Positions 7,479 to 44,826 are shown, numbered from the stretch's first letter. The stretch: DNA of 64,000 nucleotides from an uncultured Candidatus Saccharibacteria bacterium (GCA_964642155.1 CAZXNT010000001.1:65238-129237); one strand, 5' to 3'. Program-made: numbers and translations. Notes: a model not told the origin generated them from the letters alone.

Positions 7479-8480
7479 TCAGCTATTAGATAAAGCGATG
7501 ATTCGCTCAACGCTCAAATTCTGCGGCCTCGCATTCGGCTCAACACCGATTAATTTTAATTTTTCAATAATTTCTTCTTTGATTTTTGTCTTATTTATAA
7601 TTTGTGGTTCATTTTTATTACATTGTGCCTGCGATAGCAGATCTAATGTAATATTATTTTTATTTACTTTATCTCCCGCTATCCTATCGGATAGCGTGCT
7701 ATCCGATAGGATAGCTGTATTTTTGCCCGCAATTTCTGACATTAAATTATTTACAATCGTCTTCCTCGGCTGTTTAAAAAGAATTTTGATAAATTTATAA
7801 TATTTCTCATTATTACATTTCAACCGCGATAGCAGTTGAAATGTAACCGGCGTTAATTTAATAATCGCGCTATCCACTTTCGGCGCCGGTTTAAAATCAT
7901 TACGCGACACATAACCGATAATTTTCGGCTCAGCCCAAATCTGAACGCTAGCTGCCAATAAATTAATTTGCGGCGACTTGGCGCAAACGCGCTCCGCCAC
8001 TTCTTTTTGAATTAATAAAACAATTAATTCCGGCTTGCCTGCCCCGCTGTGCCCCGTAGTGAGTTTTGCTCTACTACTGGTGTAAGAAGCTTGCTTTTCT
8101 TCAGAGTACTCCAACCCGCCCAAAATCCTGAATAAATAACCAGTTATGTAATAGGGGATATTACCAACGATTTTATAATTCTTAATTCTGAATTCTGAAT
8201 TCTGAATTAAACGCGGAAGCACTTTCAATGCGTCACCTTCAATAATTTCTATATTTTTATCTCCCTTAAATTTTTCTTTAAAATCTTCGGCTAATTTCTT
8301 ATCTTTCTCAATCGCAATAATTCTACATTCTGAATTCTGCATTCTTAATTCTTTAGTAAGTTCCCCATGCCCGGGCCCAATTTCAATCACAACATCGCCG
8401 TCTTTCAATTCCAACGCTTCAACAATTTTCCGCAATTTCTCCTTATTTTTCAAAAAATACTGTCCAAGATAATTTCCCAT
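7479..8480 (-). CDS. ksgA: 16S rRNA (adenine1518/1519-N6)-dimethyltransferase KsgA/RsmA, carrying several in-frame repeat insertions
   Basis: Conserved motifs GQYFL, VVIEIGPGHGELT and GNIPYYIT. At 333 aa it is longer than typical KsgA. The extra segments correspond exactly to DNA repeats (two 34-bp palindromes, two GAATTCT tracts, one ATCCTATCGGATAGC palindrome). Confidence 0.85.
   Translation of the reverse strand: MGNYLGQYFLKNKEKLRKIVEALELKDGDVVIEIGPGHGELTKELRMQNSECRIIAIEKDKKLAEDFKEKFKGDKNIEIIEGDALKVLPRLIQNSEFRIKNYKIVGNIPYYITGYLFRILGGLEYSEEKQASYTSSRAKLTTGHSGAGKPELIVLLIQKEVAERVCAKSPQINLLAASVQIWAEPKIIGYVSRNDFKPAPKVDSAIIKLTPVTFQLLSRLKCNNEKYYKFIKILFKQPRKTIVNNLMSEIAGKNTAILSDSTLSDRIAGDKVNKNNITLDLLSQAQCNKNEPQIINKTKIKEEIIEKLKLIGVEPNARPQNLSVERIIALSNS
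7813..7846. repeat. 34-bp palindromic repeat TTACATTTCAAC-CGCGATAGCAG-TTGAAATGTAA. Family copies also at 7618-7651, 8515-8548, 9206-9239, 16057-16090 and 44096-44129.
   Basis: Read directly. Conserved core CTGCGATAGCAG flanked by TTACATT/AATGTAA arms. Three copies lie in-frame inside ksgA and the Mur ligase gene, three are intergenic. Confidence 0.85.
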
Positions 8481-8581
8481 TAATATCTATCATATCTATA
8501 AATATTTCATCAAATTACATTTCAACCGCGATAGCAGTTGAAATGTAATTTAAATTTATAATTTATATTATATAATTTGAT

Positions 8582-9193
8582 TTAATTAAATTCAGAAAAA
8601 ATTTTTTCGTCATCTATTTCGCCAACAGTTATAATTCTAATATGATTTTTTAATTTTTTATTAATAATTTCTTTATATAATTCTTTTGATAACGGCCATT
8701 TGCCGATAAAAACGCTTTTTTGAAACGGCCGATATCCCAACCCAAATAATTTGAATCGCAACCATTCTCTTTCTTTTTTTATTTTTTCCGGAATATCAAA
8801 CATTACAATTCTCCATTTTCCATCCCATTCTTTTTTTTTATTATTTTGTTGAATTTTTTTAAAATATTTTAATCCCAATAAAGTCAATTTATATTGTTCA
8901 TCATTTTTTTCAATTAATCCTTTTTGTTGTAAACGATATAAAATAACTTTTGCGTTATTCTTTTTTAAATTTTTAAGAAATTCTTTAATCTCAATATAAT
9001 CGGAAATAAAATCTCTACTATTCCTCATCCCAAAATCAAAAGCTCCGCCCACTCCCATTCTATTACTCATTAATATTCCTTCTCCTGTTTTAATAATTCC
9101 TTGCCCAATTCCAAAAATAACTGCCAAACTTGCCGCTCCTAAACTATATGGTAAATCTTTAAATTGTTCTTTAATTCTTTTTCCTCCTTTCAT
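8582..9193 (-). CDS. PaaX-like winged-helix regulator (Cas2/VapD-fold C-terminal domain)
   Basis: C-terminal motif WDGKWRIVMFDIPEKIKKEREWLRFKLFGLGYRPFQKSVFIGKWP resembles the PaaX signature. N-terminal wHTH ILYRLQQKGLIEK. Bracketed on both sides by copies of the 34-bp palindrome. Confidence 0.4.
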   Translation of the reverse strand: MKGGKRIKEQFKDLPYSLGAASLAVIFGIGQGIIKTGEGILMSNRMGVGGAFDFGMRNSRDFISDYIEIKEFLKNLKKNNAKVILYRLQQKGLIEKNDEQYKLTLLGLKYFKKIQQNNKKKEWDGKWRIVMFDIPEKIKKEREWLRFKLFGLGYRPFQKSVFIGKWPLSKELYKEIINKKLKNHIRIITVGEIDDEKIFSEFN

Positions 9194-9248
9194 CTTTCTA
9201 TTTTATTACATTTCAACCGCGATAGCAATTGAAATGTAACCAAGTAAA

Positions 9249-11120
9249 TCAATACTCAATATAACGCTCTTCGTCGTCCAGAAAATCGCTTAATGTTTCA
9301 AATTTATCGCGATTATTACTTGTAAACTCCACTGTTTCCGGAGCGATTTCATAAAGAAAACGCGAGGGGAAATTATAGAAATTTAAAAATAATTCTTTTT
9401 TGGCGCGTGTCATCGCCACATACATCAAACGGCGCTCTTCTTCAATTTCTTCATCATTATGATATGACATTTGGTGCGGCAACAGTCCTTCATTACAACC
9501 AACGATAAAAACCGCGTCAAATTCAAGCCCTTTGGCCAAATGAATCGTCATTAAATTTATAATATTTTGAGATTTATCTACTAATAGGCGAGATTGAGAA
9601 TCTAAAATTTGAGATTTTTTTATGGCATCACTTGATTGAAAAAGCGAGATTTTTTCAAGAAAATCTTGCAAATTATTGAATTCCGAAGCATAATAAATAA
9701 GTTCATTAATGTTTTCCTCGCGTTCGCGAAAATTATCGTAATTCTTTTTTAATTGGTTTAAATATCCTGTGATTTCCAAAATAAAGCTAATTAACTCAAC
9801 TGGCGGAAGTTTTCCGGTCATTTTCGGAATTTTATCTTGAATTTCCAAAAATGGTTTTTTCAAAAAATTGGTTTTTATTCTCTCAAAACTGACCGTATCG
9901 TTCGGATTAAACGCCCAACGAAGAACCGCCACAATGTCTTTAATTTCTTTGCGTTCATAAAATTTCACGCCGCCGAAAATCTTATAAGCGATGTCGTTTT
10001 CAATAAACGCGCTTTCAATGGCGCGCGACTGCGCGTTAGTGCGATAAAGTATGGCGATAGATTTATTAGAAATTGCCTCCCTTCGGGAGGTCTCCCGCAG
10101 GGAGAGAAATTGGAAATTGGAAATTTTTTCCGCTATCCACTCCGCTTCCCCGTCTTCATCATAATGTTCAATCGCTTTTACCAAATTGCCATCGTCATTT
10201 TCCGTCCAAAGATTTTTATGCTTTTGAAATTTATTTTTGGCTATCAAAGAAGAGGCAGCCTTGATGATGTTGCCGGTTGAACGATAATTTTGTTCTAAAA
10301 AAACGGTTTTTGTTTTCGGCCAATCTTTTTCAAAATTCAAAAAAATTTTAAAATCCGACCCCCTAAATTTATAAATTGACTGTTGGTCGTCTCCGACAAC
10401 GCTTAAATTTTTATGTCCACTAGCCAATAATTTTACAAAAACATATTGCGCCGTATTTGTATCCTGAAATTCGTCAACAAGAATATAACGGAATTTTTTC
10501 TGATATTTTTCAAGAATATCCGGATGATTTTTAAAAATTTTTACCGGCTCCGTGATTAAATCGTCAAAATCAAAAGCATTATTTCTCCGCAGGGTCGTTT
10601 CATATTCCTTAAAAAGAAATTTGACAGTATCATCTTCACTCTCGGGATCGGATAATTCACTTTTAATCCGTGAAAATTCTTTTCGTAAAAATAACGGGTT
10701 AACCTCCTTCTTTTTTTCGTATTCCGAAAAATTAAGATTTTTAACAATTGTTTTTATGAGCCGGAGTGAGTCATCGCCGTCAAAAATGGAAAAATTCGGC
10801 GTTCGGCCGACAAATTTAACTTCGTTTTTTAAAATTCGCGCCCCGAGAGAATGGAAAGTGCCGATGAACGGCTGAACTTTATTTTTTATTCTTAATTCAT
10901 TATTCATTATTCTATTTTTCATTTCTTCCGCCGCCTTATTGGTAAAAGTGATGGCCACAACGCTCTCTGGATCAACTCCGGAAGCCAAAATAGCCGCCAA
11001 ACGGCTGGTTAAAGCCCTGGTTTTCCCGCTTCCGGCTCCGGCAACTATCAAAATCGTCCCCTCTAAGTTTTCCACAGCCTCCTGTTGCTTTTTGTTAAGG
11101 CTTTGATATAATGGGTTCAT
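9249..11120 (-). CDS. uvrD: ATP-dependent DNA helicase UvrD/PcrA family
   Basis: Q-motif and Walker A LNKKQQEAVENLEGTILIVAGAGSGKTRALT. UvrD blocks FTNKAAEEM and YRSTGNII. The likely start is MNPLYQSL at 11120 rather than the ORF-track 11225. Contains an in-frame hairpin element at about 10069-10127. Confidence 0.85.
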   Translation of the reverse strand: MNPLYQSLNKKQQEAVENLEGTILIVAGAGSGKTRALTSRLAAILASGVDPESVVAITFTNKAAEEMKNRIMNNELRIKNKVQPFIGTFHSLGARILKNEVKFVGRTPNFSIFDGDDSLRLIKTIVKNLNFSEYEKKKEVNPLFLRKEFSRIKSELSDPESEDDTVKFLFKEYETTLRRNNAFDFDDLITEPVKIFKNHPDILEKYQKKFRYILVDEFQDTNTAQYVFVKLLASGHKNLSVVGDDQQSIYKFRGSDFKIFLNFEKDWPKTKTVFLEQNYRSTGNIIKAASSLIAKNKFQKHKNLWTENDDGNLVKAIEHYDEDGEAEWIAEKISNFQFLSLRETSRREAISNKSIAILYRTNAQSRAIESAFIENDIAYKIFGGVKFYERKEIKDIVAVLRWAFNPNDTVSFERIKTNFLKKPFLEIQDKIPKMTGKLPPVELISFILEITGYLNQLKKNYDNFREREENINELIYYASEFNNLQDFLEKISLFQSSDAIKKSQILDSQSRLLVDKSQNIINLMTIHLAKGLEFDAVFIVGCNEGLLPHQMSYHNDEEIEEERRLMYVAMTRAKKELFLNFYNFPSRFLYEIAPETVEFTSNNRDKFETLSDFLDDEERYIEY

Positions 11121-11169
11121 TAGTACAATAGTAAGCAAAATTAAATATTTAGCAAATAAAGCGGAAAAA

Positions 11170-11808
11170 ATGAGATTTGACTGCCTCGCTATGCTCTGGT
11201 GGGGACTTTTAATTTTAGCGGTCATTACGGTAAATTTCGCTTCAAATAAGGCTAATTTGAACGTTTCTTTTGTTAAAAACAGTCTCGGTGGTCCGAGCGA
11301 AGAATATCAGCGCCAACATCAAGACGCTCTTTTGGCAGCCACGGCATTAGCGCAAGGAATTCCGGAAGAAACTTCCCAAAACACCTATTCCGACGCTCTT
11401 AATACCAAAAATTCTCCAATTAATCAAAAAATCAATAAAAAATCAAATAAATTACGGATTTCCCCTCCGACTATCGGCTGGAATTGGGGACAATTACACA
11501 CTTTTAACGCCGTTGACATTGCCAACCGTTGTGGCACGCCAATATACGCGGTAAAAGACGGAATTATCACTGAAATAAATGACGATAATAGTTGGAATAA
11601 CGGTTATGGAAATTCCATTACTATGGAGCATTCAAATAATATTGAAACGCTTTATGCGCACCTTGAAAAAGTTCAAACTCAAATCGGCCAATACGTAAAA
11701 GAGAAAGAGCTTATCGGTTATATGGGCAGTACCGGCAATACGGACGGCCCGACTGGCTGCCACCTCCATTTTGAAGTTCACGGCGCGGAAAACCCGTTGG
11801 CAAATTAA
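11170..11808 (+). CDS. M23 family metallopeptidase (lysostaphin-like), secreted
   Basis: N-terminal hydrophobic segment. Catalytic motif LYAHLEKV...GYMGSTGNTDGPTGCHLHFEVH (HxH). Confidence 0.8.
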   Translation: MRFDCLAMLWWGLLILAVITVNFASNKANLNVSFVKNSLGGPSEEYQRQHQDALLAATALAQGIPEETSQNTYSDALNTKNSPINQKINKKSNKLRISPPTIGWNWGQLHTFNAVDIANRCGTPIYAVKDGIITEINDDNSWNNGYGNSITMEHSNNIETLYAHLEKVQTQIGQYVKEKELIGYMGSTGNTDGPTGCHLHFEVHGAENPLAN

Positions 11809-13382
11809 CTCTTCTCTCTCACCCTATATTGAAATGCCTCCGCCAAGTGATTGCCTTTTATTTTTTCCGAATTTTCCAAATCGGCGATTGTTTGAGCGAT
11901 TTTTAAAACTCGGTAATATCCCCTGGCGGAAATAAAAGATTTTTCCATTATATTTTTTAATACTGATTCCGCGTCATCGGCCAACGCAACTATTTCATCA
12001 ACCATTTTTGAACTCATTTCGGAGTTTAAATAAATTTTCGGCCTAGTTTTCACAAAACGATTCTTCTGAATTTCACGCGCTTTTAAAACCGCCTCTTTTA
12101 TTTTTTTATTAATATTATTATCGCGGCTCGGCGCTTCTTTTCTTAATTCTTCTATTTTTATTCGTGGCACTTCAATTTGAATATCAATTCTATCCAGAAG
12201 CGGACCGGAAATTTTCTTTTGATAACGAAAAACTTCGTTCGCCGTGCATTGGCATTCTTTTTCCGGCGTTTCAACTCCGAAATAACCGCAAGGGCAAGGA
12301 TTCATCGCCGCCACCAAAGAAAATTTCGCCGGAAAATCAAGTGAGCCCTTGGCGCGAGAAATACAAACATTACCGCTTTCCAATGGCTGACGTAAAGATT
12401 CTAAAAGGTCGCGGCGAAATTCCGGAATTTCATCAAGAAACAAAACTCCCCGATGCGCCAAACTTATTTCTCCGGGCTTGGGATTCGCTCCGCCACCAAT
12501 AACCGAAACCATTGAAGCTGAATGGTGTGGCGCCCGAAACGGCCTAAAATTCACGAACGGATTATTGCCCAAAGCGCCAGCAGCGCTGTAAATCTGCGTT
12601 GTTTCAATGATTTCGTCTAGCGAAGGCAAAGGTAAAATCGAAACTAAGGCCTGAGCCAACATTGTTTTGCCGGCTCCCGGCGGTCCAAACATTAAGATAT
12701 TATGTCCGCCGGCAGCCGCTACCGTTAAAGCCCGCTTGGCGCTTTCCTGCCCCTTAATGTCCGAAATATTAACTAACGACTCTTCATTTGTTGAATCAAA
12801 TTCAATCTTGAACGGCTTTTGAAAAACCATTTCTTTTCTTTCTTCAAGAAAATCAATCAATTCAATTAAATTTGAAACTGGAACAATATTTATTCCTTTT
12901 ATAATCGCGGCTTCAGCCGCGTTTTCTTTCGGTAAAAATAAAAATTTAAATCCGAGTTTTTTTGCCAAACGGCTGATGCTTAAACTTCCGGAAATCTGCC
13001 TTAATCCCCCGTCTAAAGAAAGTTCGCCGATGAAAATTTTATCCTTAGTTTCAAAATTTTTAATTTGTTTAGTGGCCAGTAAATAGCCGGTGGCAATCGC
13101 CAAATCGTATTGCGAACCGGTTTTTTTAATGTCAGCCGGCGCGAGATTAACCGTAATTTTTCTGTTTTCTTTTGTCGGCGGCTTGATGCCGGAATTTTTT
13201 AAAGCCGAACTTACGCGCTCTTTCGCCTCTTTCAACGCCCTATCTGCCAAACCGACTATATTAAACGAATGAAGACCGACGTTAATGTCGGTCTCCACTT
13301 CAATAAGCCTGGCGTTAATTCCTTCAAGTTCAGCTGAATAAACTTTAGAGAAATTTTTCATAGTATTCGCGAATAATGCCAA
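11805..13382 (-). CDS. comM: YifB/ComM family Mg-chelatase-like AAA+ ATPase
   Basis: Walker A MFGPPGAGKTMLAQAL. Overall ComM-like layout. C4 cluster CPCGYFG...CQC. Confidence 0.85.
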   Translation of the reverse strand: MALFANTMKNFSKVYSAELEGINARLIEVETDINVGLHSFNIVGLADRALKEAKERVSSALKNSGIKPPTKENRKITVNLAPADIKKTGSQYDLAIATGYLLATKQIKNFETKDKIFIGELSLDGGLRQISGSLSISRLAKKLGFKFLFLPKENAAEAAIIKGINIVPVSNLIELIDFLEERKEMVFQKPFKIEFDSTNEESLVNISDIKGQESAKRALTVAAAGGHNILMFGPPGAGKTMLAQALVSILPLPSLDEIIETTQIYSAAGALGNNPFVNFRPFRAPHHSASMVSVIGGGANPKPGEISLAHRGVLFLDEIPEFRRDLLESLRQPLESGNVCISRAKGSLDFPAKFSLVAAMNPCPCGYFGVETPEKECQCTANEVFRYQKKISGPLLDRIDIQIEVPRIKIEELRKEAPSRDNNINKKIKEAVLKAREIQKNRFVKTRPKIYLNSEMSSKMVDEIVALADDAESVLKNIMEKSFISARGYYRVLKIAQTIADLENSEKIKGNHLAEAFQYRVREKS

Positions 13383-13438
13383 TTTTTTATCAATAATGCG
13401 AATAAATTATTAGCATTATTTGCGAGCAATTCGCATTA

Positions 13439-13759
13439 TTAGCGATTACTCTTGCATTCCCGGCACAATTTTGATTCCGGGCTTATTCCAAGAATTTCCG
13501 CGGAGATTTCTTTTTTACAATTTTCGCAAACTCCGTATTTGCCATTATTGATTTTTTCCAAAGCCGATTCAATATCAGATAAACGCTCTTTTAAAGTTTG
13601 GACAATGGACATCACGTTGCCGTATTCTTCGGATTCATCGGTTTCTTCATCCGGGTCCACATCGCTGCCGAAATCGGCAATCCCTTTGTGTTTTTTTAAT
13701 TCTTCCAAAACTTCCTGTTTTTCTTTTTCAAGTTTTTGTTTAAATTCAATGGTATTCAT
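13439..13759 (-). CDS. DksA/TraR family C4 zinc-finger protein
   Basis: C-terminal CENCKKEI...CRECK C4 motif preceded by an acidic coiled coil. Confidence 0.65.
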   Translation of the reverse strand: MNTIEFKQKLEKEKQEVLEELKKHKGIADFGSDVDPDEETDESEEYGNVMSIVQTLKERLSDIESALEKINNGKYGVCENCKKEISAEILGISPESKLCRECKSNR

Positions 13760-13769
13760 AAATTATAAA

Positions 13770-14114: not shown

Positions 14115-14150
14115 TTTTGAATTATATTCAAATTTTTAAAATCACGCAAA

Positions 14151-16046: not shown

Positions 16047-16109
16047 TAATTTAAAATTACATTACGACTGCTATCGCAGGTGTAATGTAATTATTAAAAT
16101 TTTTAATTA

Positions 16110-19583: not shown

Positions 19584-19667
19584 TCCGCCGCTTTCAAAAC
19601 GTGCTTTTTCAGCATTGCCACATATCCCCATTCGTTATCGTACCAGGAAAGAATTTTCACCAAATTC
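19584..19667. repeat. 84-bp direct repeat, identical to 20182-20265 (duplicated 3' end of gap)
   Basis: Identical strings tccgccgctttcaaaacgtgctttttcagcattgccacatatccccattcgttatcgtaccaggaaagaattttcaccaaatt at both positions. The DUF4258/DUF2283 pair lies between them. Confidence 0.9.
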
Positions 19668-20171: not shown

Positions 20172-21176
20172 TTACAAATTCTCCGCCGCTTTCAAAACGT
20201 GCTTTTTCAGCATTGCCACATATCCCCATTCGTTATCGTACCAGGAAAGAATTTTCACCAAATTGCCGTCGATTACTTTGGTAAATTTTAAATCAACGAT
20301 CGCTCCGTACGATTCAGAAATAATATCCGAAGAAACAATCTGGTCTTCAACGGTTTTTAAAATTCCCTGCCATTTTTGAGATCCTGTGGCTTTTTTCAAA
20401 ATATCATTAATTTCTTCAACCGAAGTTTTTCTTTTGGAAATAAAAGTGATGTCCGCGATGGAACCGGTAATCATAGGCACGCGCAAAGCAATGCCGTCAA
20501 ATTTTCCTTCCAAGTCTTTAATGATGCGATTGGTAGCAATGGCCGCGCCGGTAGTTGAAGGAATAATATTTTGCGAAGCGGCCCGGCCGCGCCGAAAATC
20601 GTTGCCCTTCACCGGACTGTCAACGGTTGTTTGAGTATTAGTCATTGCGTGAATAGTGTTTAAAACTGCTTTTTCAATTCCCGGATTTTCATTTAAAATC
20701 GCCATAACCGAAGCAATGCCGTTAGTGGTGCAGGAAGCGTTGGAAGAAATTTTAACGGATTTCAATTCATCGTCATTTATGCCGATTAAAATCGTCTTGC
20801 CCAAATCGCCGTCTGCGTCTTTTGCCGGCGCGGTCAAAACAACTCTTTTGGCTCCGGCGTCCAAATGCGCCTTGGCTTTTTCATAAGATTCAAAAACTCC
20901 CGTTGATTCAACGACAATATCCACGCCCAAATCTTTCCACGGTAATTTTGTCGGGTCTTTTTCCTGTAAAAATTTTATATTGTCAATCGGAGTTTCAAAA
21001 CGCCCGTAAACCGAATCGTACTTAAATAAATAACGCAGATTTTCAACGTCGCCCAAATCATTTATCGCGACAATTTCAATCCGCTGGCTAACGGATGGGT
21101 CGCTTAATATCTGCCTAAGGAATAATCGCCCAATCCTTCCAAAACCGTTTATCGCTATTTTAATTTTTTTATCCAT
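20172..21176 (-). CDS. gap: type I glyceraldehyde-3-phosphate dehydrogenase
   Basis: KIAINGFGRIGRLFLRQ and SNASCTTNGIASV active-site motifs. Confidence 0.9.
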   Translation of the reverse strand: MDKKIKIAINGFGRIGRLFLRQILSDPSVSQRIEIVAINDLGDVENLRYLFKYDSVYGRFETPIDNIKFLQEKDPTKLPWKDLGVDIVVESTGVFESYEKAKAHLDAGAKRVVLTAPAKDADGDLGKTILIGINDDELKSVKISSNASCTTNGIASVMAILNENPGIEKAVLNTIHAMTNTQTTVDSPVKGNDFRRGRAASQNIIPSTTGAAIATNRIIKDLEGKFDGIALRVPMITGSIADITFISKRKTSVEEINDILKKATGSQKWQGILKTVEDQIVSSDIISESYGAIVDLKFTKVIDGNLVKILSWYDNEWGYVAMLKKHVLKAAENL

Positions 21177-27832: not shown

Positions 27833-28366
27833 TTATATTTCTATTATTTTCCAAATATTATTAGGATAAAGACCTATTCTAATATAAATTGGCTCGTCAA
27901 TAAAAAATTCTTTTCTACCAGGAATATCATCTGATGAAAAATATCCATTTGTAGATTTTTTAAGTAAACTAAGATATTTATCTATAAATTCTTTTGTCAC
28001 TTTATTTAATTTTTCCAATTCTTTTTCCTGATATTTCTCTATAAAATATTTACTCGCCAATTCGTAATTTCCTGTTTCAACGGCGCTTATGTACATTTGC
28101 AAAGTTTCCTGCGGAATTCTACCGCCATAAGTGTCCGCCATGGCTTTTTGATAATCTTCTTGTTTAATTCTTTCCAATCTTCCAGCTAATTCTTCAACCG
28201 CTTTTTCTCCCTGCCATTGCCTAAAAAAATACCAACACCAAGAACTGGCGATATACAAAACAAAAACACCGGCGATTATCGTGAAGAATATCAATGTGAA
28301 CTTCCAAAATTTGCCTTTCGGCTTATTAATTTCGTTTATTTGATTGTTTTGATTTTGATTTTCCAT
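27833..28366 (-). CDS. small membrane-anchored protein, paralog of 26733..27266
   Basis: Same architecture. Its start codon abuts the terminal inverted repeat of MITE copy 1. Confidence 0.5.
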   Translation of the reverse strand: MENQNQNNQINEINKPKGKFWKFTLIFFTIIAGVFVLYIASSWCWYFFRQWQGEKAVEELAGRLERIKQEDYQKAMADTYGGRIPQETLQMYISAVETGNYELASKYFIEKYQEKELEKLNKVTKEFIDKYLSLLKKSTNGYFSSDDIPGRKEFFIDEPIYIRIGLYPNNIWKIIEI

Positions 28367-28513
28367 CCCTCACCCTTCAAAGATTTTCCAGTACATAAAG
28401 CTTTTTATGTACTGGATTATATTGAAGTTTAATTTTATTTTATATCTCATTCATTTTACTTATCATTCCCCTTTACCACTTTCTTTATTTCTTATCTTTG
28501 AAGGGTGAGGGAT
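28365..28513. mobile_element. MITE-like element copy 1 (20-bp terminal inverted repeats ATCCCTCACCCTTCAAAGAT / ATCTTTGAAGGGTGAGGGAT)
   Basis: Termini are identical to the copies at about 50081-50223 and 55438-55584. The interior is AT-rich with a hairpin. Confidence 0.6.
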
Positions 28514-28649
28514 TTTCAAAATAAAAAGGACGTATTCCAAAAAACACGCCCCCTCACTCAGGCATAATTAAATTATAAATCGCCACATTTTTCCGTCAAC
28601 CACTCTCTCTGTGGATAACTTATTTATCTAATACATTAAACTCTAAATA

Positions 28650-36254: not shown

Positions 36255-36269
36255 AATTTAAAACATATT

Positions 36270-36644: not shown

Positions 36645-36670
36645 AATAATCATGAACTGAAAAGGTCGAG

Positions 36671-37321: not shown

Positions 37322-37357
37322 CTATTTTGCCGTAATTAATATTCAAAAGTATTTTTT

Positions 37358-37392
37358 AAAAACAGCCCATTGATTTTCGGGCTGTTTTTGTT
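37358..37392. terminator. rho-independent terminator after the pilin gene (aaaaacagccc...gggctgttttt)
   Basis: GC stem followed by a T run. Confidence 0.6.
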
Positions 37393-37408
37393 TAATATAA
37401 ATTTATAA

Positions 37409-38650: not shown

Positions 38651-38654
38651 AATT

Positions 38655-39563: not shown

Positions 39564-39590
39564 AAGTAAAACTTCTAACGGGGTAAATAA
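39561..39590. terminator. terminator hairpin built from the CCCGTTAGAAG motif (ccccgttagaag taaaa cttctaacgggg)
   Basis: Perfect 12-bp stem at the secF stop. The same motif recurs at 60700-60860. Confidence 0.6.
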
Positions 39591-39636
39591 AAAATCCTCG
39601 CCAATGTTCTGGCGAGGATAGACAGTTCACAAAAAA

Positions 39637-40401
39637 TTATCCTGTTATGATAAACGCAGCGTTGCGATATTTAATGCCGTTTTTATCATCGCGAGAATAA
39701 CACCAGTATTTCCCGCTACAACAGACACATTCGCCCGTATCATTAATTTTTTTATAGCCTTTTTCCGTAAATAATTCTCGGATAAGGCCGACTAAATTGA
39801 AATTAATGGAACGGTTTTCTATATGAATAAATTGATCGTTATCATTCGGCCTCATGACTTTGATAATAGGATAAACGGTCTTTAAAAAATAATTATAACC
39901 GTCTTTCTCATATTTGAGACAATCGCCGCACATTGAAGGAAGAAAAACTATCTGCGTAGTTTCTTTTCTCCCGCTGACATTTTCCCATAACGTTAAAAAT
40001 CTATCAACGATATTTTGCGTTATTGATTTCCAACCTCCGTGAAGAAGGCCTGAGATATTTGCCTTTTCATCACAAAGAATAATCGTCGGACACCCGCCGG
40101 GAAAGAATATGGCCGATCCTGGTCCATAGTAAATAACACCATCGCAAAATACCTGAGTAGATTTATTTTTTTTCAACTTTTCAAAAAACCAAACATCATC
40201 GCCGTGATTTTCCGCCCGCATAACAACATATCCAACCTGATTAAAGCCGGATATTGTTAAAGCCATATCAGCCATTTTAAACGCCTCAGCAAACGAACTA
40301 TTGGGGGAAAAATTACCCGCACCTTTAAGCGTCATACCTGCCAGTACTTTATTACTAACGTCAAATTGGCTGAATAAAAAATGAGTTTCTTTCTTCATCA
40401 C
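39637..40401 (-). CDS. pgeF: peptidoglycan editing factor PgeF / YfiH (DUF152) family
   Basis: IILCDEKANISGLLHGGWKSI and the C-terminal Cys cluster are characteristic of DUF152. Confidence 0.55.
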   Translation of the reverse strand: MMKKETHFLFSQFDVSNKVLAGMTLKGAGNFSPNSSFAEAFKMADMALTISGFNQVGYVVMRAENHGDDVWFFEKLKKNKSTQVFCDGVIYYGPGSAIFFPGGCPTIILCDEKANISGLLHGGWKSITQNIVDRFLTLWENVSGRKETTQIVFLPSMCGDCLKYEKDGYNYFLKTVYPIIKVMRPNDNDQFIHIENRSINFNLVGLIRELFTEKGYKKINDTGECVCCSGKYWCYSRDDKNGIKYRNAAFIITG

Positions 40402-40510
40402 AACCTCCTATATTTAATTTTTTATTTTTTACTAATAATAGAATAAAACACGTTTTATAAAATGTCAACTTTTCTTTTTATTTTTAAACCAATATAATAA
40501 TAATGCGATT

Positions 40511-41080
40511 ATGGAAACATTGCTGTTCCAATACCTGCTTTTATGGAAGCCCTTGGGCTATTTTTTAATCTTTCTCGGTCTCGCGCTTGAAGGCGATACC
40601 GCGCTGTTCATAACTTCGTTTTTAACCTACCATGGATTTTTTGATATCTGGAAATTTCTTTTAGCCGCTTTCAGCGGAGCTATAATTGGAGATATCTTCT
40701 GGTATTGGCTTGGCCAGCGTATCAACAATTCCTCGTCTTTTATTAATAAAATAACTAATCGCATAAAATTCGCCGATAACCACCTTATTAACAGATTGCC
40801 GCATACAATTTTTGTTTCAAAATTCATTTACGGCACTCATCATCTCATCATGCTCCGCGCCGGCGCCTTAAACATTGATTTAAAAAAAATAATAAAATAT
40901 AATTTTTTGCCGACTCTTCTTTGGATTTTATTAATCGGCGGATTGGGATATTTGTCCGGCGCGTCTTTTATTATTATAAAAAAATACGTGCGATTTATTG
41001 AAATAGGCCTGCTTATCGCTTTGATAATTTTCTTTATTGTGGAACGCTTTATTAAAAAACGCTCCGAGAAAAAATTGTGA
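40511..41080 (+). CDS. DedA/VTT-domain membrane protein
   Basis: LGLALEGDTALFITSFL ... GDIFWYWLG motif. Confidence 0.7.
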   Translation: METLLFQYLLLWKPLGYFLIFLGLALEGDTALFITSFLTYHGFFDIWKFLLAAFSGAIIGDIFWYWLGQRINNSSSFINKITNRIKFADNHLINRLPHTIFVSKFIYGTHHLIMLRAGALNIDLKKIIKYNFLPTLLWILLIGGLGYLSGASFIIIKKYVRFIEIGLLIALIIFFIVERFIKKRSEKKL

Positions 41081-41128
41081 TATAATTTTTATCATTGACG
41101 AAAACAATTAAATAAAGATAATTAAATT

Positions 41129-41884
41129 ATGGAAAATACACCAAAGGAAAATAAAGATTATTTTTTGCCGGCAAGCATCGTTATCGCCGCCCTGCTTATC
41201 GCCGGCGCGTGGATTTATACTGCCGGATTAAAAAATATTGAATTGAAAAAATCCGACCAAGCGCCGCAAGCTGAAAAAACCGTTCCAAGCATAGAAAACG
41301 TAATTCCAATAAGCGATAGAGACCACCTCCGGGGAGACAAAAACGTTCCCGTTCAAATTATTGAATTCTCCGACATGGAATGCCCATATTGTAAAAATTT
41401 CCATCAAACAATGTTGAAAATAATGGAAGAATACGGCAAAAACGGCCAAGTGGCTTGGATTTACCGACATTTTCCGCTTGAGCAACTTCATCCCTTAGCG
41501 CAAAAAGCAGCTGAAGCATCGGAATGCGCGACAAAAATTGGCGGTAACGATATTTTTTGGAAATATCTTGACCAATATATGACGTTATCGTCTTCTGAAG
41601 AAAATTTAATATCAAATAAATTTACCGAAATAGCCGAAAATATCGGATTAAATAAAACACAATTTGAAAATTGTTTGAACAGCGGAGAATTCAAAGAGAA
41701 AATAGACGGCCATGCTCAAGATGCCATGAATTCTGGCGCCATGGGCACTCCTTATAGTATTATTATTGGAAAAAACAACAAAAAATACGAAATCAACGGC
41801 GCCTTGCCAATTGACGATTTTAAAGATCAATACGGCATAATGCAAAAAGGCATAAAAACACTTATTGAAGAAGCGCTAAAATGA
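41129..41884 (+). CDS. DsbA-like thiol:disulfide oxidoreductase, membrane-anchored
   Basis: N-terminal TM. Thioredoxin CxxC motif ECPYCKNF. Confidence 0.75.
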   Translation: MENTPKENKDYFLPASIVIAALLIAGAWIYTAGLKNIELKKSDQAPQAEKTVPSIENVIPISDRDHLRGDKNVPVQIIEFSDMECPYCKNFHQTMLKIMEEYGKNGQVAWIYRHFPLEQLHPLAQKAAEASECATKIGGNDIFWKYLDQYMTLSSSEENLISNKFTEIAENIGLNKTQFENCLNSGEFKEKIDGHAQDAMNSGAMGTPYSIIIGKNNKKYEINGALPIDDFKDQYGIMQKGIKTLIEEALK

Positions 41885-43146
41885 TTTTTAAAAATCTTCA
41901 AAAAACCGACTCTGAAATTTACAAACTTATCGTTGCTGAAGATAAACGGCAGAAAGAAACAATAAACCTGATTGCTTCGGAAAATTTTGTTTCCGAAAGT
42001 GTTCTTGAAGCGTTGGGTTCGGTTTTCACTAATAAATACAGCGAAGGATATCCTCATGCCAGATATTACGGAGGCAATGAATTTTGCGACAAATTGGAAG
42101 AATTATGCCAAAAAAGAGCACTTAAACTTTTTAAACTTTCGGCGCGCGAATGGAGCGTTAATGTTCAACCGTATTCCGGTTCTCCGGCAAATCTAGCCGT
42201 CTATTTGGCGCTTGTGCCAATTGACGAATCCGCCTTCGCGCAAGGCTACGGCGGACGAGGAAAAATAATGGGAATGCAACTTGATATGGGCGGGCATCTG
42301 ACGCACGGACACAAAGCGAGCGCCACGGGGAAATTATGGCAACAAATTCCTTACGGCGTTGATGAAAAAACCGAGCAATTAAATTATGATGAAATTTTAC
42401 AAATTGCCAAAAAAGAAAAACCGAAATTGATTGTTTGCGGCTATACCGCTTATTCGCGAATTATTGATTTTAAAAAATTCCGAAAAATCGCCGATGCTGT
42501 TAATGCTATTTTAATGATTGATATGTCTCATTTTGCCGGATTGGTTGCCGGAGGCGTTTATCCTTCTCCTTTTAAATACGCTGACGTTATCACGACAACA
42601 ACGCACAAAACTTTGCGAGGACCCCGCGCCGCGCTCATATTTACGAATAAAAATAAAAAATTACATTACACCAGCGATAGCATGTCTAATGTAATAAATA
42701 AAGCTGTTTTCCCGGGATTGCAAGGCGGGCCACATATGAACGCCGTTGCCGCCGTTGCCGTAGCCTTACAAGAAGCCGCCAAACCGGCTTTTAAAAAATA
42801 TAGCCAACAAATAATAAAAAACGCTAAAACTTTTGCTTTGGAACTGCAAAAACTCGGCTGGCGAATTATTGCTAACGGCACGGATACGCATTTATTTTTA
42901 GTTGATACATGGTCGCGCGGAATTAGTGGAAAAACCGCCGAAACCGCGCTTGAAAAAGCCGGTATAATTGTTAATAAAAATACGATTCCGTTTGACAAAC
43001 GAAGCCCAATTGACCCATCCGGAATAAGAATCGGAACAGCGGCAATCACCAGTCAGGGACTAAAAGAAAAAGATATGAAAAAAATCGCGAAAAAAATAGA
43101 TAAAATTCTAACGGGGTTGACAAAAAAATATAGTAAGTTAAAATAA
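41881..43146 (+). CDS. glyA: serine hydroxymethyltransferase
   Basis: LIASENFVSESVLEALGS and TTTTHKTLRGPR (PLP-binding Lys). Confidence 0.9.
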   Translation: MIFKNLQKTDSEIYKLIVAEDKRQKETINLIASENFVSESVLEALGSVFTNKYSEGYPHARYYGGNEFCDKLEELCQKRALKLFKLSAREWSVNVQPYSGSPANLAVYLALVPIDESAFAQGYGGRGKIMGMQLDMGGHLTHGHKASATGKLWQQIPYGVDEKTEQLNYDEILQIAKKEKPKLIVCGYTAYSRIIDFKKFRKIADAVNAILMIDMSHFAGLVAGGVYPSPFKYADVITTTTHKTLRGPRAALIFTNKNKKLHYTSDSMSNVINKAVFPGLQGGPHMNAVAAVAVALQEAAKPAFKKYSQQIIKNAKTFALELQKLGWRIIANGTDTHLFLVDTWSRGISGKTAETALEKAGIIVNKNTIPFDKRSPIDPSGIRIGTAAITSQGLKEKDMKKIAKKIDKILTGLTKKYSKLK

Positions 43147-43212
43147 AATTGTAGTACTTACAAAATTTTATAAAAAGGAGAGGGGTGGTTATGAAAAATA
43201 AGGAGGGGGTCA

Positions 43213-43395
43213 ATGAAAAGATGGATGCCTAGTGGACCTGTATGTCCACACTGTAAAGCGCCAAATGCCGACAATCATGACAAATGTGGCAGTTGCGACC
43301 AAAATACACAAACATCATCACCCTTATTACCACCAGACGCTCGACTTACGGCCGAAGAATTACTGTGGCATTCCGTAACCTTATTAAGCTCATAA
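43213..43395 (+). CDS. small zinc-ribbon protein (CPHC...CGSC)
   Basis: 60-aa ORF with two CxxC pairs, preceded by strong SD-like tracts aaggagagggg and aaggaggggg. Local GC is raised. Confidence 0.3.
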   Translation: MKRWMPSGPVCPHCKAPNADNHDKCGSCDQNTQTSSPLLPPDARLTAEELLWHSVTLLSS

Positions 43396-43404
43396 TGTAT
43401 AATT

Positions 43405-44826
43405 TTATATTATTACATTGTGGGCTTTTTTATTTTCCAAAATTTCCTCCACGATTTTTTTTTCGTCCCACGGAATTTTTTTATTGCCCGCAACGCACAT
43501 TGACGACTCCCCTCCCTTCCCCGTTAAAATAACAACATCTCCTTTTTGCGCCAAAAACAGCGCCTTTTTAATCGCTTCTCTCCTATCTATAATTTCATAA
43601 ATTTTGGAAATTGGAAATTGTCTGGCTTCGCCAGATCTCGCGAAGCGAGAGAAATTGGAAATTCCAGATTTTATTTCCGATAAAATCTGGCTGGGTTTTT
43701 CGTCATATGGGTCTTCATTCGTCAAAATAACTTCATCGCAATATCGCGTTGCTATTTCGCCCATTTTCGGCCTTTTCCATTTATCCCGTCCTCCGCCCTG
43801 CGCCCCCAATAAACATATCAACTTTGAATTCTGAATTCTGAATTCTGAATTCTGAATTGTTTGATATACTGCTTCCAAACTCACCGGTTCATGGGCGTAA
43901 TCAACAATCACGGTAAAATCACTTACCTTGATAATCTCCATTCTGCCTGCCGGCGATTTTGCCTGCGCCAACGCTTCTTTTATTTTTTCAATCGGGATAT
44001 TTAGCGACAAAGTAACCGCAATCGCCGCCACGGCATTATAAACATTAAATTCCCCAACTAATAGTATTCCAATAATTAATGGTATTTCAATTTTATTACA
44101 TTGCATCTGCGATAGCAGATGTAATGTAACTTCGAATTTTGTTTTATCTGAATATAATTTAATATTTTCTACTTCTAAAATTTTATTTACTTTTGACTTT
44201 TGATTTGAACTTTTGACTTTTATTCCGTATCCGTATTTATTTTTAATTTCCGGTTTTAAAAAATATTCAACGTTTTCATCGTCTAAGTTATAAATCCCAA
44301 CACCATTTTTCTTTCGTGCCACTCTTTCAAATAATTTTATTTTTGCGTTCCGATAATTTTCAAAACCGCCGTGCCGTTCAATATGTTCAGGCGATAAATT
44401 TGTAAAAACCGCGATATCATAATCAATAAAACGATGTCTGTATTGCAAAATCCCCTCTGAAGAAGTTTCTACCACCGCGTATTCGCATTTTTCCGCAACC
44501 ATTTGCCTCAGCAATTTTTGCAGCTGAAACCTGCCGAGCATTGTCTGCTTTGATTCGTTTTTCCATTCCCGCTCGCCTATCCGAAAATCCACCGTGGTTG
44601 CCATTCCGACTTTATGGCCGCTGAAATTCAAAATTTGAGCGATTAAATTGCAAGTGGTGGTTTTTCCTTTGGTTCCGGTAACACCGATGACTTTCATTTT
44701 GTGAGACGGAAAACCATAAATCAAGGCTGAAAAAAATGCCAGAGAAAAATGATAAATCGGCTGGCCGAGCCGATATAAAAATTTCGGAATAATATGTTTT
44801 TCAAAAAATCTTAAAATTTTCTCCAT
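43405..44826 (-). CDS. murE: Mur ligase family protein (MurE-like), with in-frame repeat insertions
   Basis: VIGVTGTKGKTTT P-loop, NLSPEHIERHGGFENYRNAK and a C-terminal GGGRDKWKRP Mur-ligase motif. Contains a 34-bp palindrome, a (GAATTCT)4 tract and a double-hairpin element. Confidence 0.7.
   Translation of the reverse strand: MEKILRFFEKHIIPKFLYRLGQPIYHFSLAFFSALIYGFPSHKMKVIGVTGTKGKTTTCNLIAQILNFSGHKVGMATTVDFRIGEREWKNESKQTMLGRFQLQKLLRQMVAEKCEYAVVETSSEGILQYRHRFIDYDIAVFTNLSPEHIERHGGFENYRNAKIKLFERVARKKNGVGIYNLDDENVEYFLKPEIKNKYGYGIKVKSSNQKSKVNKILEVENIKLYSDKTKFEVTLHLLSQMQCNKIEIPLIIGILLVGEFNVYNAVAAIAVTLSLNIPIEKIKEALAQAKSPAGRMEIIKVSDFTVIVDYAHEPVSLEAVYQTIQNSEFRIQNSKLICLLGAQGGGRDKWKRPKMGEIATRYCDEVILTNEDPYDEKPSQILSEIKSGISNFSRFARSGEARQFPISKIYEIIDRREAIKKALFLAQKGDVVILTGKGGESSMCVAGNKKIPWDEKKIVEEILENKKAHNVII

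What the first reader, a model, noticed from the sequence alone, without database searches (positions are those of the whole stretch)
7618..44129. Dispersed 34-bp palindrome family with six copies, half of them inside coding sequence
Copies lie at 7618-7651, 7813-7846, 8515-8548, 9206-9239, 16057-16090 and 44096-44129. All share the TTACATT / AATGTAA arms and the CTGCGATAGCAG core, or its complement CTGCTATCGCAG in the 16057 copy. Three are intergenic: two bracket the PaaX-like gene and one sits between tktB and tktA. Three are in-frame inside ksgA and the Mur ligase gene. This density, about one copy per 10 kb, together with coding-sequence tolerance, suggests an active or recently active REP/RPE-like element. 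Its conserved GATA-centred core could equally be a protein-binding site.
Basis: seen in the sequence. Interest (0 to 1): 0.65.

Follow-up and report, generated by a model that had tools for sequence, protein, structure and literature searches.

The report
Regulator binding palindromes spread into genes
The 34-bp palindromes are most likely the DNA-binding sites of the small PaaX/Cas2-like regulator encoded between two of them. This regulator-plus-site module is conserved across CPR bacteria, and in this lineage extra copies have spread into housekeeping genes and gene junctions.

Summary
All six copies are at the stated coordinates, and there is a seventh at 42661-42694 inside glyA (0 expected by chance). 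The window is from a CPR/Patescibacteria genome (Moranbacteria-like).

Three copies form a conserved module. O1 (9206) lies over the promoter of a 203-aa wHTH + Cas2-like (PaaX_M) gene. O2 (8515) lies between that gene and ksgA. O3 (7813) lies inside the ksgA linker. The module recurs in lineages whose regulator is only 37-90% identical. The arm sequences differ between lineages but agree among O1, O2 and O3 within a genome. This marks them as cognate sites of the encoded dimeric protein. E. coli PaaX is comparable: it autorepresses through TGATTC-N27-GAATCA.

The other four window copies (7618, 16057, 42661, 44096) are imperfect. Three are present in some close relatives and absent in others; 44096 is conserved. 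One SHMT loop holds a different palindrome type in relatives, so a REP/RPE-like spread of operator copies is real here. I found no transposase, no target duplication and mostly no net insertion.

Verdict: an operator family with secondary dispersal, a new variant of a known kind.

The parts
9206..9239 (-). O1: palindrome immediately upstream of the PaaX/Cas2-like gene, ending 12 nt before its ATG. It overlaps a promoter-like site.
   Evidence: A palindrome holds the same position in front of every homologous gene found. O1-specific T gives TTGCTA where O2 and O3 have CTGCTA.
9200..9228 (-). Promoter-like site TTGCTA-17-TAAAAT. The -35 lies inside the palindrome core and the -10 abuts the right arm. 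The ATG follows 6 nt after the -10, so the mRNA is inferred to be leaderless or nearly so.
   Evidence: Consensus scan, (a weak 9-of-12 match in AT-rich DNA). The same geometry is seen in L017 (TTGCTA-17-TATAAT), L043 (TTGCTA-17-TAAAAT) and L039 (TTGACG-18-TAAAAT), read. Function is inferred, not shown.
8582..9193 (-). Gene for a 203-aa winged-helix + Cas2-like (PaaX_M) protein, the proposed cognate binder of the palindromes.
   Evidence: Pfam PF20803 3e-17 and Cas2 PF09827 6e-5. AF2 model with wHTH at 67-103 and a ferredoxin-like fold at 126-191. Best Foldseek match is E. coli PaaX 8a39, then Rv0674, then Cas2 proteins. 113 homologues; every source name that gives a taxon is CPR.
8515..8548 (-). 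O2: palindrome between the regulator gene and ksgA. Identical in sequence to O3.
   Evidence: A downstream copy is present in the window, L010, L014, L017, L026, L034, L001, L011, L021, L032, L033, L039, L041, L043, L045, L049 and L050.
7813..7846 (-). O3: palindrome inside the ksgA linker (aa 211-222, VTFQLLSRLKCN), in the only open one of its six reading frames.
   Evidence: Orthologous position in L014, L008, L027, L017, L039 and L043; absent in L045, L049 and L050. Frame analysis. Short-read contigs of this organism end inside it.
7479..8480 (-). ksgA (16S rRNA dimethyladenosine transferase), downstream partner of the module and host of O3 and of copy 7618.
   Evidence: Pfam RrnaAD 1.6e-43. 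PaaX-like followed by ksgA is conserved in L039, L043, L045, L049 and L050.
7618..7651 (-). Secondary, imperfect copy in the C-terminal part of ksgA (ITLDLLSQAQCN). Specific to the window lineage.
   Evidence: Absent at the orthologous place in L027, L014, L017 and L008. The hairpin has an internal loop, -12.7 kcal/mol.
16057..16090 (.). Secondary, imperfect copy between the transketolase N-half and C-half genes, 10 nt upstream of the C-half ATG. Its core is in the opposite orientation.
   Evidence: A copy sits just upstream of the C-half gene in L025. The junction is occupied by a 150-bp TIR element in L010/L037 and by another palindromic element in L027.
42661..42694 (.). Secondary, most degenerate copy, in-frame in a variable surface loop of glyA/SHMT (LHYTSDSMSNV).
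   Evidence: Relatives L002/L016 carry a different ('type B') palindrome in the same loop, and L018 a degenerate one.
44096..44129 (-). Secondary copy in-frame in the MurE-like ligase (VTLHLLSQMQCN). Conserved at the orthologous position in relatives, with changes on both arms.
   Evidence: L002, L015, L016 and L018 have a perfect TCAAC-type copy (ITFQLLSQLKCN) at the same position. No net insertion relative to solved MurE-like chains.

Best explanation
The 34-bp palindromes are the cognate DNA sites of the 203-aa winged-helix + Cas2-like (PaaX-family-like) protein encoded at 8582-9193.

Proposed mechanism:
- The protein dimerises through its Cas2-like domain (inferred from the fold and from PaaX).
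- Its two winged helices are placed on the outer arms TTACATT / AATGTAA. The dimer body lies over the core GC(T/G)AT(C/A)GC (inferred).
- O1 overlaps the -35 and spacer of the protein's own promoter and abuts its -10. Binding there would repress its own transcription, as E. coli PaaX does at Px (inferred).
- O2, in front of ksgA, and O3, inside ksgA about 700 bp further on, are auxiliary sites of the same module. Their likely roles are control of ksgA, looping or roadblock (inferred).

The module O1-gene-O2-ksgA(O3) is ancestral in this part of the CPR (shown by comparison).

In the window's lineage, copies of the site have also appeared at other places: a second ksgA position, the transketolase gene junction, a glyA loop and a murE-like gene. 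These copies are imperfect. Three of them differ between close relatives, and the murE-like one is conserved (shown). The process that spreads them is not identified. It behaves like REP/RPE spread, but usually overwrites existing sequence rather than adding length.
For: 1. Association with the gene.
- Every PaaX-like gene recovered has a palindrome just upstream. These are 22 ORFs on 22 loci, some of them duplicate contigs, at 37-100% identity.
- All but L044 and the truncated contigs L036/L037 also have one downstream.

2. Concerted change.
- Arms differ by lineage: TTACATT (window), TTACACTT (L039), ATAACACTT (L043), ATAGCACTT (L045), ATATTTCATCAT (L049), GTAACATAT (L044).
- Within a genome they are the same among O1, O2 and O3. 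The central CGAT(A/C)G is kept everywhere.

3. O3 sits at the orthologous ksgA linker position in the window, L014, L017, L039 and L043. There the protein sequence follows the DNA motif.

4. Promoter overlap at O1. The scan finds TTGCTA-17-TAAAAT, and the same geometry is seen in three other lineages.

5. The protein.
- Pfam PaaX_M 3e-17.
- AF2 model with a wHTH plus a ferredoxin-like fold.
- Best structural match is E. coli PaaX 8a39.
- PaaX binds TGATTC-N27-GAATCA and represses its own promoter (PMC9493321).

6. Symmetry statistics.
- 88.6% of cells are symmetric against 74.5% in shuffles.
- 13 of 17 positions change on both sides.
- Departures from symmetry are concentrated in columns 13-16, between the arms and the core. 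This fits two protein-contact zones better than a uniformly selected hairpin stem.

7. In the other lineages, only the 1-3 local copies occur within 18-20-kb loci.

8. The recognition-helix residue after 'IL' varies with arm type: Y or H with TTACAT/TTACAC arms, W with CACTT arms, C with type B. The sample is small, so this is only suggestive.

9. In a related organism the palindrome lies 33 nt downstream of a canonical TTGACA-N17-TATAAT promoter. It is part of a repeated cassette in front of several operons, which is operator-like placement.
Against: - No binding has been shown; everything rests on comparative sequence evidence.
- Four of the seven window copies lie inside genes. Two secondary copies (16057, 42661) have the core in the opposite orientation, with no consistent relation to promoters.
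- Secondary copies come and go between genomes that are about 72-90% identical in DNA. That is unusual for a regulon.
- The same SHMT loop holds type A in the window and type B in L002/L016.
- L049 has type-B sites around its regulator but a perfect type-A copy inside fpg. This needs either a second regulator paralogue, which was not seen, or a copying process independent of regulation.
- L027 lacks the whole O1-gene-O2 segment yet keeps O3 and another perfect copy.
- The promoter match is weak (9 of 12) in AT-rich DNA, where 10.1 such hits per 2 kb are expected by chance.
Confidence: 0.6

Rival explanations
1. REP-RAYT-like selfish system built on a Cas2 fold. In this reading the palindromes are mobilisable elements. 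The wHTH-Cas2-like protein that they flank is the site- or structure-specific nuclease, or the recombination-promoting factor, that copies them to new places. The conserved trio would be the 'home' locus, as RAYT genes are flanked by their REPs.
For: - The gene is flanked on both sides by its palindromes in nearly all lineages.
- Secondary copies are polymorphic between close relatives.
- Two palindrome types occupy the same SHMT loop.
- A type-A copy lies in fpg in a genome whose regulator has type-B flanks.
- Identical 34-mers occur at several loci.
- An Asp (D133, in FDIPE) is invariant in the family. It lies at the position that the Cas2 profiles align to Cas2's beta-1. That this Asp is the Cas2 metal ligand is from my own knowledge of Cas2 and was not verified here.
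- The NCBIfam cas2 model scores just above its cut-off (24.9 against 24.5).
Against: - The gene sits in conserved synteny (ComM-UvrD-gene-ksgA) and is single-copy in every locus. RAYTs are also vertically inherited, so this is weak evidence.
- In most lineages there is no dispersal beyond the local 1-3 copies.
- No target duplication was found, and the in-gene copies mostly replace sequence rather than add it.
- No transposition chemistry is known for Cas2 folds. In PaaX the same domain serves dimerisation.
- The best structural match is a repressor.
Confidence: 0.17
2. General palindrome-invasion phenomenon. These CPR genomes are colonised by several unrelated families of short hairpin-forming elements, spread by an unidentified common mechanism such as template switching or a transposase encoded elsewhere. 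In this reading, type A is just one such family. Its position next to the PaaX-like gene would reflect a favoured landing site rather than recognition by that protein.
For: Other elements that invade genes or gene junctions are present:
- a 150-bp TIR element;
- a 63-nt double hairpin in UvrD and MurE;
- the CCCCCACAT...ATGTGGGGG palindromes, found in the same ksgA loop of L014 and L045;
- the 38-bp palindrome at 7678-7715.

Gene junctions swap occupants between relatives.
Against: - It does not explain why the arms change in concert at O1, O2 and O3 in each lineage while the position next to the gene is kept down to 37% protein identity.
- It does not explain the -35/-10 geometry at O1.
- In the window, type A is the only long palindrome family with several copies.
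Confidence: 0.1
3. RNA-level element. The palindromes act as transcribed hairpins, for mRNA stability, processing or translation control, possibly recognised by the Cas2-like domain acting as an RNA-binding or RNase module.
For: - Stable predicted hairpins: -19 to -25 kcal/mol for the trio, z-scores -6 to -11.
- Most copies have the core in the same orientation relative to transcription.
- In the L012-type cassette the palindrome lies in the 5' leader.
- Some Cas2/VapD proteins are ribonucleases (my own knowledge).
Against: - The orientation bias of in-gene copies is explained by reading frames: only one of six frames is open.
- At O1 the orientation is explained by the -35 embedded in the core.
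- L039 has a perfectly symmetric core, GACGATCGTC, with no loop asymmetry.
- Symmetry is relaxed in the middle of the would-be stem.
- Two window copies are in the opposite orientation.
- The palindromes do not score as terminator-like, because no T-run follows them. There is no Rfam match.
Confidence: 0.06
4. Chromosome-organisation sites of the parS, NBS or matS kind. A DNA-binding protein marks a chromosomal region through dispersed palindromic sites, which are tolerated inside genes.
For: - The sites are dispersed, partly inside genes, and palindromic.
- The binder gene lies next to its sites.
Against: - Most lineages have only the 1-3 local sites.
- Secondary sites are not conserved between relatives.
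- The protein is not of the ParB, Noc, SlmA or MatP type.
Confidence: 0.04

Closest known systems
PaaX repressor and its operators (E. coli/Pseudomonas phenylacetate regulon)
   Same: - N-terminal winged helix plus a central Cas2-like (PaaX_M) domain.
- PaaX is the best structural match.
- The operator is made of widely spaced inverted half-sites: TGATTC-N27-GAATCA for PaaX, TTACATT-N20-AATGTAA here.
- The repressor's own promoter is covered by the site (PMC9493321).
   Different: - No PaaX C-terminal domain (203 aa against about 310).
- It scores far below the PaaX equivalog cut-off (23 against 264.55 bits).
- No paa genes nearby. The partner gene is ksgA.
- It has a conserved central core motif, an operator inside a coding sequence, and secondary dispersal. 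I do not know of any of these being described for PaaX.
REP sequences with their RAYT (REP-associated tyrosine transposase)
   Same: - A single-copy, vertically inherited gene flanked on both sides by the short palindromes it is associated with.
- The palindrome sequence is specific to the gene's lineage.
- Extra copies are dispersed in the genome.
   Different: - The protein is not a Y1/HUH transposase.
- Copy number is low.
- Four of the seven copies are inside genes, whereas REPs are extragenic.
- Most lineages show no dispersal.
Rickettsia palindromic elements (RPE)
   Same: - Palindromic repeats found in-frame inside housekeeping genes, in permissive loops or linkers.
- Kept at orthologous positions in related genomes.
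   Different: - 34 bp rather than about 100-150 bp.
- Usually no net gain in length.
- Tied to a DNA-binding protein gene.
- Only one of six frames is open.
Auxiliary operators inside coding sequence (lac O2 in lacZ, gal OI in galE)
   Same: O3 lies inside the downstream structural gene, a few hundred bp from the promoter-proximal operators. It has the same sequence as they do.
   Different: - The spacing is about 640-720 bp.
- Conservation reaches across very distant lineages, with the coding sequence following the site.
- Looping has not been shown.

Membership tests
PaaX-family transcriptional regulator with operator | N-terminal winged helix plus central Cas2-like PaaX_M domain | tested here: met
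   PF20803 3e-17 at aa 121-190 and a weak wHTH hit at 75-120. The AF2 model shows both domains. Foldseek top hit is 8a39, E. coli PaaX.
PaaX-family transcriptional regulator with operator | Full-length PaaX (C-terminal PaaX_C domain; passes the TIGR02277 equivalog cut-off) | tested here: not met
   The protein is 203 aa and no PaaX_C hit was found. TIGR02277 scores 23 bits against a cut-off of 264.55. It is a PaaX-like minimal relative, not a PaaX orthologue.
PaaX-family transcriptional regulator with operator | Operator made of two inverted half-sites separated by more than two helical turns, covering the regulator's own promoter | tested here: inconclusive
   The geometry is present (TTACATT-N20-AATGTAA), and O1 overlaps TTGCTA-17-TAAAAT. 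Binding and repression cannot be tested with these tools.
PaaX-family transcriptional regulator with operator | Linked to phenylacetate catabolic (paa) genes | tested here: not met
   The neighbours are UvrD, ksgA, ComM and M23 peptidase. No paa genes occur in any locus.
REP/RAYT system | Cognate gene encodes a Y1 (HUH) transposase of the IS200/IS605 type | tested here: not met
   The flanked gene is wHTH + Cas2-like. No other candidate lies next to any copy. The rest of the genome was not available.
REP/RAYT system | Gene flanked by its own palindromes | tested here: met
   Palindromes lie on both sides in the window and in most other loci.
REP/RAYT system | Tens to hundreds of mainly extragenic copies per genome | tested here: inconclusive
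   There are 7 copies in 64 kb, 4 of them inside genes, and none in a further 6 kb of the same organism. No whole genome was available.
RPE-like in-frame selfish insertion | The element adds its own length in-frame to the host protein | tested here: not met
   No net insertion at ksgA O3, MurE or SHMT relative to distant homologues. Only copy 7618 sits in extra sequence that the closest relative lacks.
MITE | Terminal inverted repeats plus a target-site duplication, with clean filled and empty sites | tested here: not met
   Filled/empty comparisons show no duplication, and the indel boundaries do not coincide with the 34 bp (L027 9571 against window 16970; window 7618 against L027).
Cas2 (CRISPR adaptation) | Stand-alone protein of about 90 aa encoded next to cas1 and a CRISPR array | tested here: not met
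   It is fused to a wHTH. The neighbours are housekeeping genes. The repeat survey shows no regularly spaced array. Cas2 models score at or below their cut-offs.
Intrinsic terminator | G+C-rich stem followed by a T-run | tested here: not met
   None of the seven copies is reported by the terminator scan of 7400-9400, and the flanks lack T-runs.
Known RNA family | Match to an Rfam model at gathering score | tested here: not met
   Only five tRNAs are found in the window.

The most novel reading that the evidence does not exclude
The wHTH-Cas2-like protein may be more than a repressor. It could be a site- or structure-specific nuclease, or a recombination-promoting factor, that copies its own palindromic recognition site into new chromosomal positions, including permissive loops of essential genes. 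That would be a REP-RAYT analogue built on a Cas2 fold in CPR bacteria, with several specificity types (A and B) coexisting in a genome.
Probability: 0.12. Interest if true: 0.9.

Novelty: new variant of a known kind. Interest (0 to 1): 0.55.

Why it matters
- Regulation in CPR/Patescibacteria is almost unexplored. This gives a concrete, widely conserved regulator-and-site pair that can be tested in vitro without culturing the organisms. It comes with a natural series of co-varying protein and site variants.
- It shows a DNA-binding site dictating 12 codons of an essential gene (ksgA) across deep lineages. It also shows the same site appearing inside murE, glyA and fpg.
- It flags that proteins annotated 'Cas2' in CPR genomes without CRISPR are likely DNA-binding regulators.
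- If the minority reading is right, it would be a new way for short palindromes to spread, based on a Cas2-like fold.
- The identical 34-mers also break short-read assemblies of these genomes.

Tried and rejected
1. The correct spacing is N4.

2. Chance or local duplication is rejected by the shuffles and by hits in other genomes.

3. CRISPR repeat is rejected. The spacing is irregular and no cas genes are present.

4. Terminator or Rfam family: neither was found.

5. Excision of the regulator gene by recombination between O1 and O2 as the origin of the L027 state is rejected. L027 keeps no palindrome copy in the 38-bp spacer.

The E-value ceiling is 10 and the minimum query is 40 aa. The host-gene census is therefore limited to the loci in hand.

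7. The viral-contig scan found nothing.

8. Sequence search of the regulator, or of its Cas2-like half, against PDB gave nothing useful. Only fold comparison worked.

9. Literature searches combining PaaX, Cas2-like, CPR and palindromes found no prior description.

10. A search for type-B palindromes in the window found none.

11. I looked for a functional theme among genes next to dispersed copies in relatives (trmD, NIF3-like, class-II aaRS, glycosyltransferase, ksgA). None emerged.

Full report
**1. Observation**

- With the correct N4 spacing, TTACATT-N4-CTGCGATAGCAG-N4-AATGTAA (up to 3 mismatches) finds seven sites against 0.00 expected.
- The arms alone find the same seven against 1.11 expected.
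- The seventh copy, 42661-42694, was missed. It lies in-frame in glyA/SHMT.

Placement by ORFs and Pfam:

| Copy | Location |
|---|---|
| 9206, 8515 | bracket a 203-aa ORF (8582-9193, minus strand) |
| 7813, 7618 | in-frame in ksgA |
| 16057 | between the two transketolase half-genes |
| 44096 | in-frame in a MurE-like ligase |
| 42661 | in-frame in glyA/SHMT |

The window has 37% G+C.

**2. Where else it occurs**

Exact-pattern scans found 11 stretches in species-representative genomes. All are CPR/Patescibacteria MAGs, mostly labelled Moranbacteria. A further 27 stretches came from metagenomes and none from viral contigs. Several loci are syntenic with the window at about 72-90% DNA identity, which allowed site-by-site comparison.

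**3. The bracketed gene**

The ORF 8582-9193 carries a weak winged-helix match and a clear PaaX_M (Cas2-like) domain: PF20803 at 3e-17, with Cas2 PF09827 at its threshold.
- The AF2 model (mean pLDDT 75) shows a wHTH at residues 67-103 and a ferredoxin-like domain at 126-191.
- The best fold matches are E. coli PaaX (8a39) and Rv0674, followed by many Cas2 chains.
- NCBIfam scores it just over the cas2 cut-off and far below the PaaX equivalog cut-off. This explains why sources name it Cas2, PadR, PaaX or hypothetical.
- There are 113 homologues of about 200 aa, and every source name that gives a taxon is CPR.
- D133 in WDGKWRIVMFDIPE is invariant.

**4. Association of gene and palindrome**

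tblastn and an HMM search find one such gene per locus. In every case a palindrome lies just upstream. In almost every case another lies downstream. This holds down to 37-47% protein identity (L001, L011, L021, L032, L033).

I then fetched loci through more distant homologues:

| Locus | Regulator homologue (identity) | Arrangement |
|---|---|---|
| L039 | P0046 (46%) | TTACACTT-N-GACGATCGTC-N-AAGTGTAA upstream, downstream and inside ksgA |
| L043 | P0022 (51%) | the same trio, with ATAACACTT arms |
| L045 | P0027 (52%) | O1 and O2 with ATAGCACTT arms; no O3 |
| L050 | P0016 (59%) | TTACATT arms with a CCGATCGG-type core |
| L041 | P0073 (Wolfebacteria) | 42-44-bp palindromes around GCGATCG |
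| L044 | P0101 | a palindrome around GCTATAGC |
| L049 | P0017 (62%) | a distinct 'type B' palindrome, ATATTTCATCAT-ATCAACGATCGTGGGC-ATGATGAAATAT, on both sides |

Three things follow.
- The position is conserved.
- The arms differ by lineage but agree among the copies within a genome.
- A central CGAT(A/C)G is kept throughout.

The order ComM-(M23)-UvrD-gene-ksgA is also conserved.

**5. O3 inside ksgA**

A protein alignment places the palindrome-encoded 12 residues at the same linker position in the window, L014, L017, L039 and L043. L045 has an unrelated linker only 3 aa shorter. Against B. subtilis KsgA the segment is only 3 aa longer. The motif is therefore written over a variable linker and kept at the DNA level. 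For the perfect copy, only one of the six reading frames is open (TFQLLS[R/Q]LKC). That is the frame used in ksgA, in MurE of relatives and in fpg of L049.

**6. Promoter overlap**

At O1 the core reads TTGCTA, where O2 and O3 have CTGCTA. This is followed by 17 nt and then TAAAAT, which abuts the right arm. The consensus scan reports this site. L017 (TTGCTA-17-TATAAT), L043 (TTGCTA-17-TAAAAT) and L039 (TTGACG-18-TAAAAT) share the geometry. The ATG follows 6 nt after the -10, which suggests a leaderless or near-leaderless mRNA. This is an inference from weak consensus matches in AT-rich DNA.

**7. Symmetry**

I analysed 32 distinct copies from all lineages.
- 88.6% of arm positions are complementary, against 74.5% in shuffles.
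- 13 of 17 positions change on both sides.
- The covariation score is 0.415 against 0.17, and about 0.06-0.11 when partners are slid.
- Non-complementary cells are concentrated in columns 13-16, between the outer arms and the core.

This pattern fits two symmetric protein-contact zones better than a hairpin selected along its whole stem. Hairpins are nevertheless predicted to be stable: -19 to -25 kcal/mol for the trio and -10 to -18 for the secondary copies.

**8. Known parallel**

E. coli PaaX binds TGATTC-N27-GAATCA and represses its own promoter by occluding RNA polymerase (review PMC9493321). I found no paper linking PaaX-like or Cas2-like proteins of CPR bacteria with palindromes.

**9. 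Secondary copies and mobility**

- Copy 7618 is absent from the orthologous place in L027, L014, L017 and L008.
- L014 and L008 instead have a copy right after the ksgA stop.
- The transketolase junction holds the palindrome in the window. In L025 a small extra ORF lies at this junction and the palindrome sits just upstream of the C-half gene. L010/L037 have a 150-bp TIR element there and L027 another palindromic element. L027 has a copy one junction further on, where the window has none.
- The MurE copy is conserved in four relatives but with different inner arms on both sides.
- The SHMT copy is window-specific. At the same loop L002 and L016 carry a type-B palindrome, and L018 a degenerate one.
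- L049, whose regulator is flanked by type B, has a perfect type-A copy inside fpg.
- L027 lacks the whole O1-gene-O2 segment. Only a 38-bp AT-rich spacer remains, with no palindrome.
- In another related organism the palindrome is part of a near-identical cassette of about 130 bp (TTGACA-N17-TATAAT, then 33 nt, then the palindrome). The cassette precedes a RiPP-like/radical-SAM operon, lipoprotein genes and others.

I found no target duplication and no clean 34-bp indel. At ksgA O3, MurE and SHMT there is no net gain in length. In other lineages only the local copies occur within 18-20 kb.

**10. Interpretation**

The comparative evidence best fits cognate binding sites of the encoded wHTH-Cas2-like dimer. 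O1 would act as an autoregulatory operator, with O2 and O3 as auxiliary sites of a regulator-ksgA module (confidence about 0.6). In the window's lineage the site has multiplied and turns over between strains, which is REP/RPE-like behaviour. The mechanism is unknown. The architecture (gene flanked by its palindromes, lineage-specific palindrome types, invariant Cas2-position Asp) leaves room for a REP-RAYT-like role of the protein (about 0.15-0.2). A purely RNA-level role, a generic palindrome invasion unrelated to the protein, and chromosome-organisation sites are each less likely, for the reasons given under the rivals.

**11. Limits**

- No binding, transcription or nuclease data exist.
- Promoter calls are consensus matches.
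- The helix-to-arm correlation rests on 11 proteins.

Noticed in passing
window 28363-28524, 50079-50234, 55436-55595: Three copies of a MITE-like element of about 150 bp. It has 22-bp terminal inverted repeats (CCATCCCTCACCCTTCAAAGAT / ATCTTTGAAGGGTGAGGGAT) and a variable AT-rich interior. In relatives it fills gene junctions that are empty in the window: the transketolase junction in L010/L037, and the 13759/13791 junction.
   Followed up: partly
window 10065-10127 (UvrD) and 43610-43672 (MurE-like): A 63-nt repeat forming two adjacent hairpins, with compensatory stem changes between the two copies. It is in-frame in both proteins (SNFQFLSLRETSRREAISN / SNFSRFARSGEARQFPIS). This is a second structured repeat family embedded in coding sequence.
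   Followed up: partly
window 8177-8212, 8319-8354 (ksgA) and 43813-43862 (MurE-like): (GAATTCT)n heptamer tracts inside coding sequence, encoding QNSEFRI(K/Q)N in both proteins.
   Followed up: no
window 7678-7715 (inside ksgA): A perfect 18+18-bp palindrome, GCTATCCTATCGGATAGC-GT-GCTATCCGATAGGATAGC, translated in-frame. It is shared only with L027 and absent from L014, L017 and L008.
   Followed up: partly
window ~8040-8108 (inside ksgA); L017 ksgA: A window-specific 69-nt in-frame insertion containing CTACGGGGCAC/AGCGGGGCAGGC. A related CTACGGGGCAGGC motif is inserted at a different ksgA position in L017.
   Followed up: no
L002 1707, 3009, 4286; L014 1587; L045 11206; L016, L015, L035: A third palindrome family (ATGAATCCCCCACATAAA...TTTATGTGGGGGAT) in relatives. 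It sits in the same KsgA loop in L014 and L045 (MNPPHK.. / MNPTHR..) but is absent from the window.
   Followed up: partly
L049 9909 and 10672; L002 2513; L016 3448: The 'type B' palindrome, TTTCATC-N6-ACGATCGT-N3-CATGATGAAA, flanks the PaaX-like gene of L049. It also sits in the SHMT loop of genomes whose own PaaX-like gene has type-A flanks. Two specificity types appear to coexist in one genome.
   Followed up: partly
L046 and L047 position 1 (= window ~7840): Short-read (Logan) contigs of the window organism begin exactly inside the O3 palindrome. The identical O2 and O3 34-mers break assemblies.
   Followed up: yes
window 19584-19666 and 20182-20264: An exact 83-nt direct duplicate 598 bp apart, at the ends of two minus-strand ORFs.
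   Followed up: no
window 13362-13450: An 89-bp imperfect palindrome (44-nt arms, 77% complementary) in an intergenic spacer. A related element occupies the transketolase junction in L027.
   Followed up: no
window 8582-9193, protein residues 16-65: The regulator's N-terminal region has a conserved hydrophobic stretch (LPYSLGAASLAVIFGIGQGII), followed by a low-confidence segment. This may be a membrane or amphipathic helix in front of the wHTH.
   Followed up: no
L026 10022-11818; L037 ~1420-1890: Relatives carry extra genes at junctions that are tight in the window. L026 has a 1.8-kb insert between the transketolase halves. L026/L037 have an extra gene of about 430 nt upstream of the N-half gene, which I read (my own knowledge, not tested) as a GxxExxY/PD-(D/E)XK-like ORF.
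   Followed up: no
window 897-5047 and neighbours; L039, L043, L045: Type IV secretion-like genes (TrbL_3, PrgI, TraC-like, P-loop TraG) lie next to the ksgA locus in the window organism and in distant relatives.
   Followed up: no
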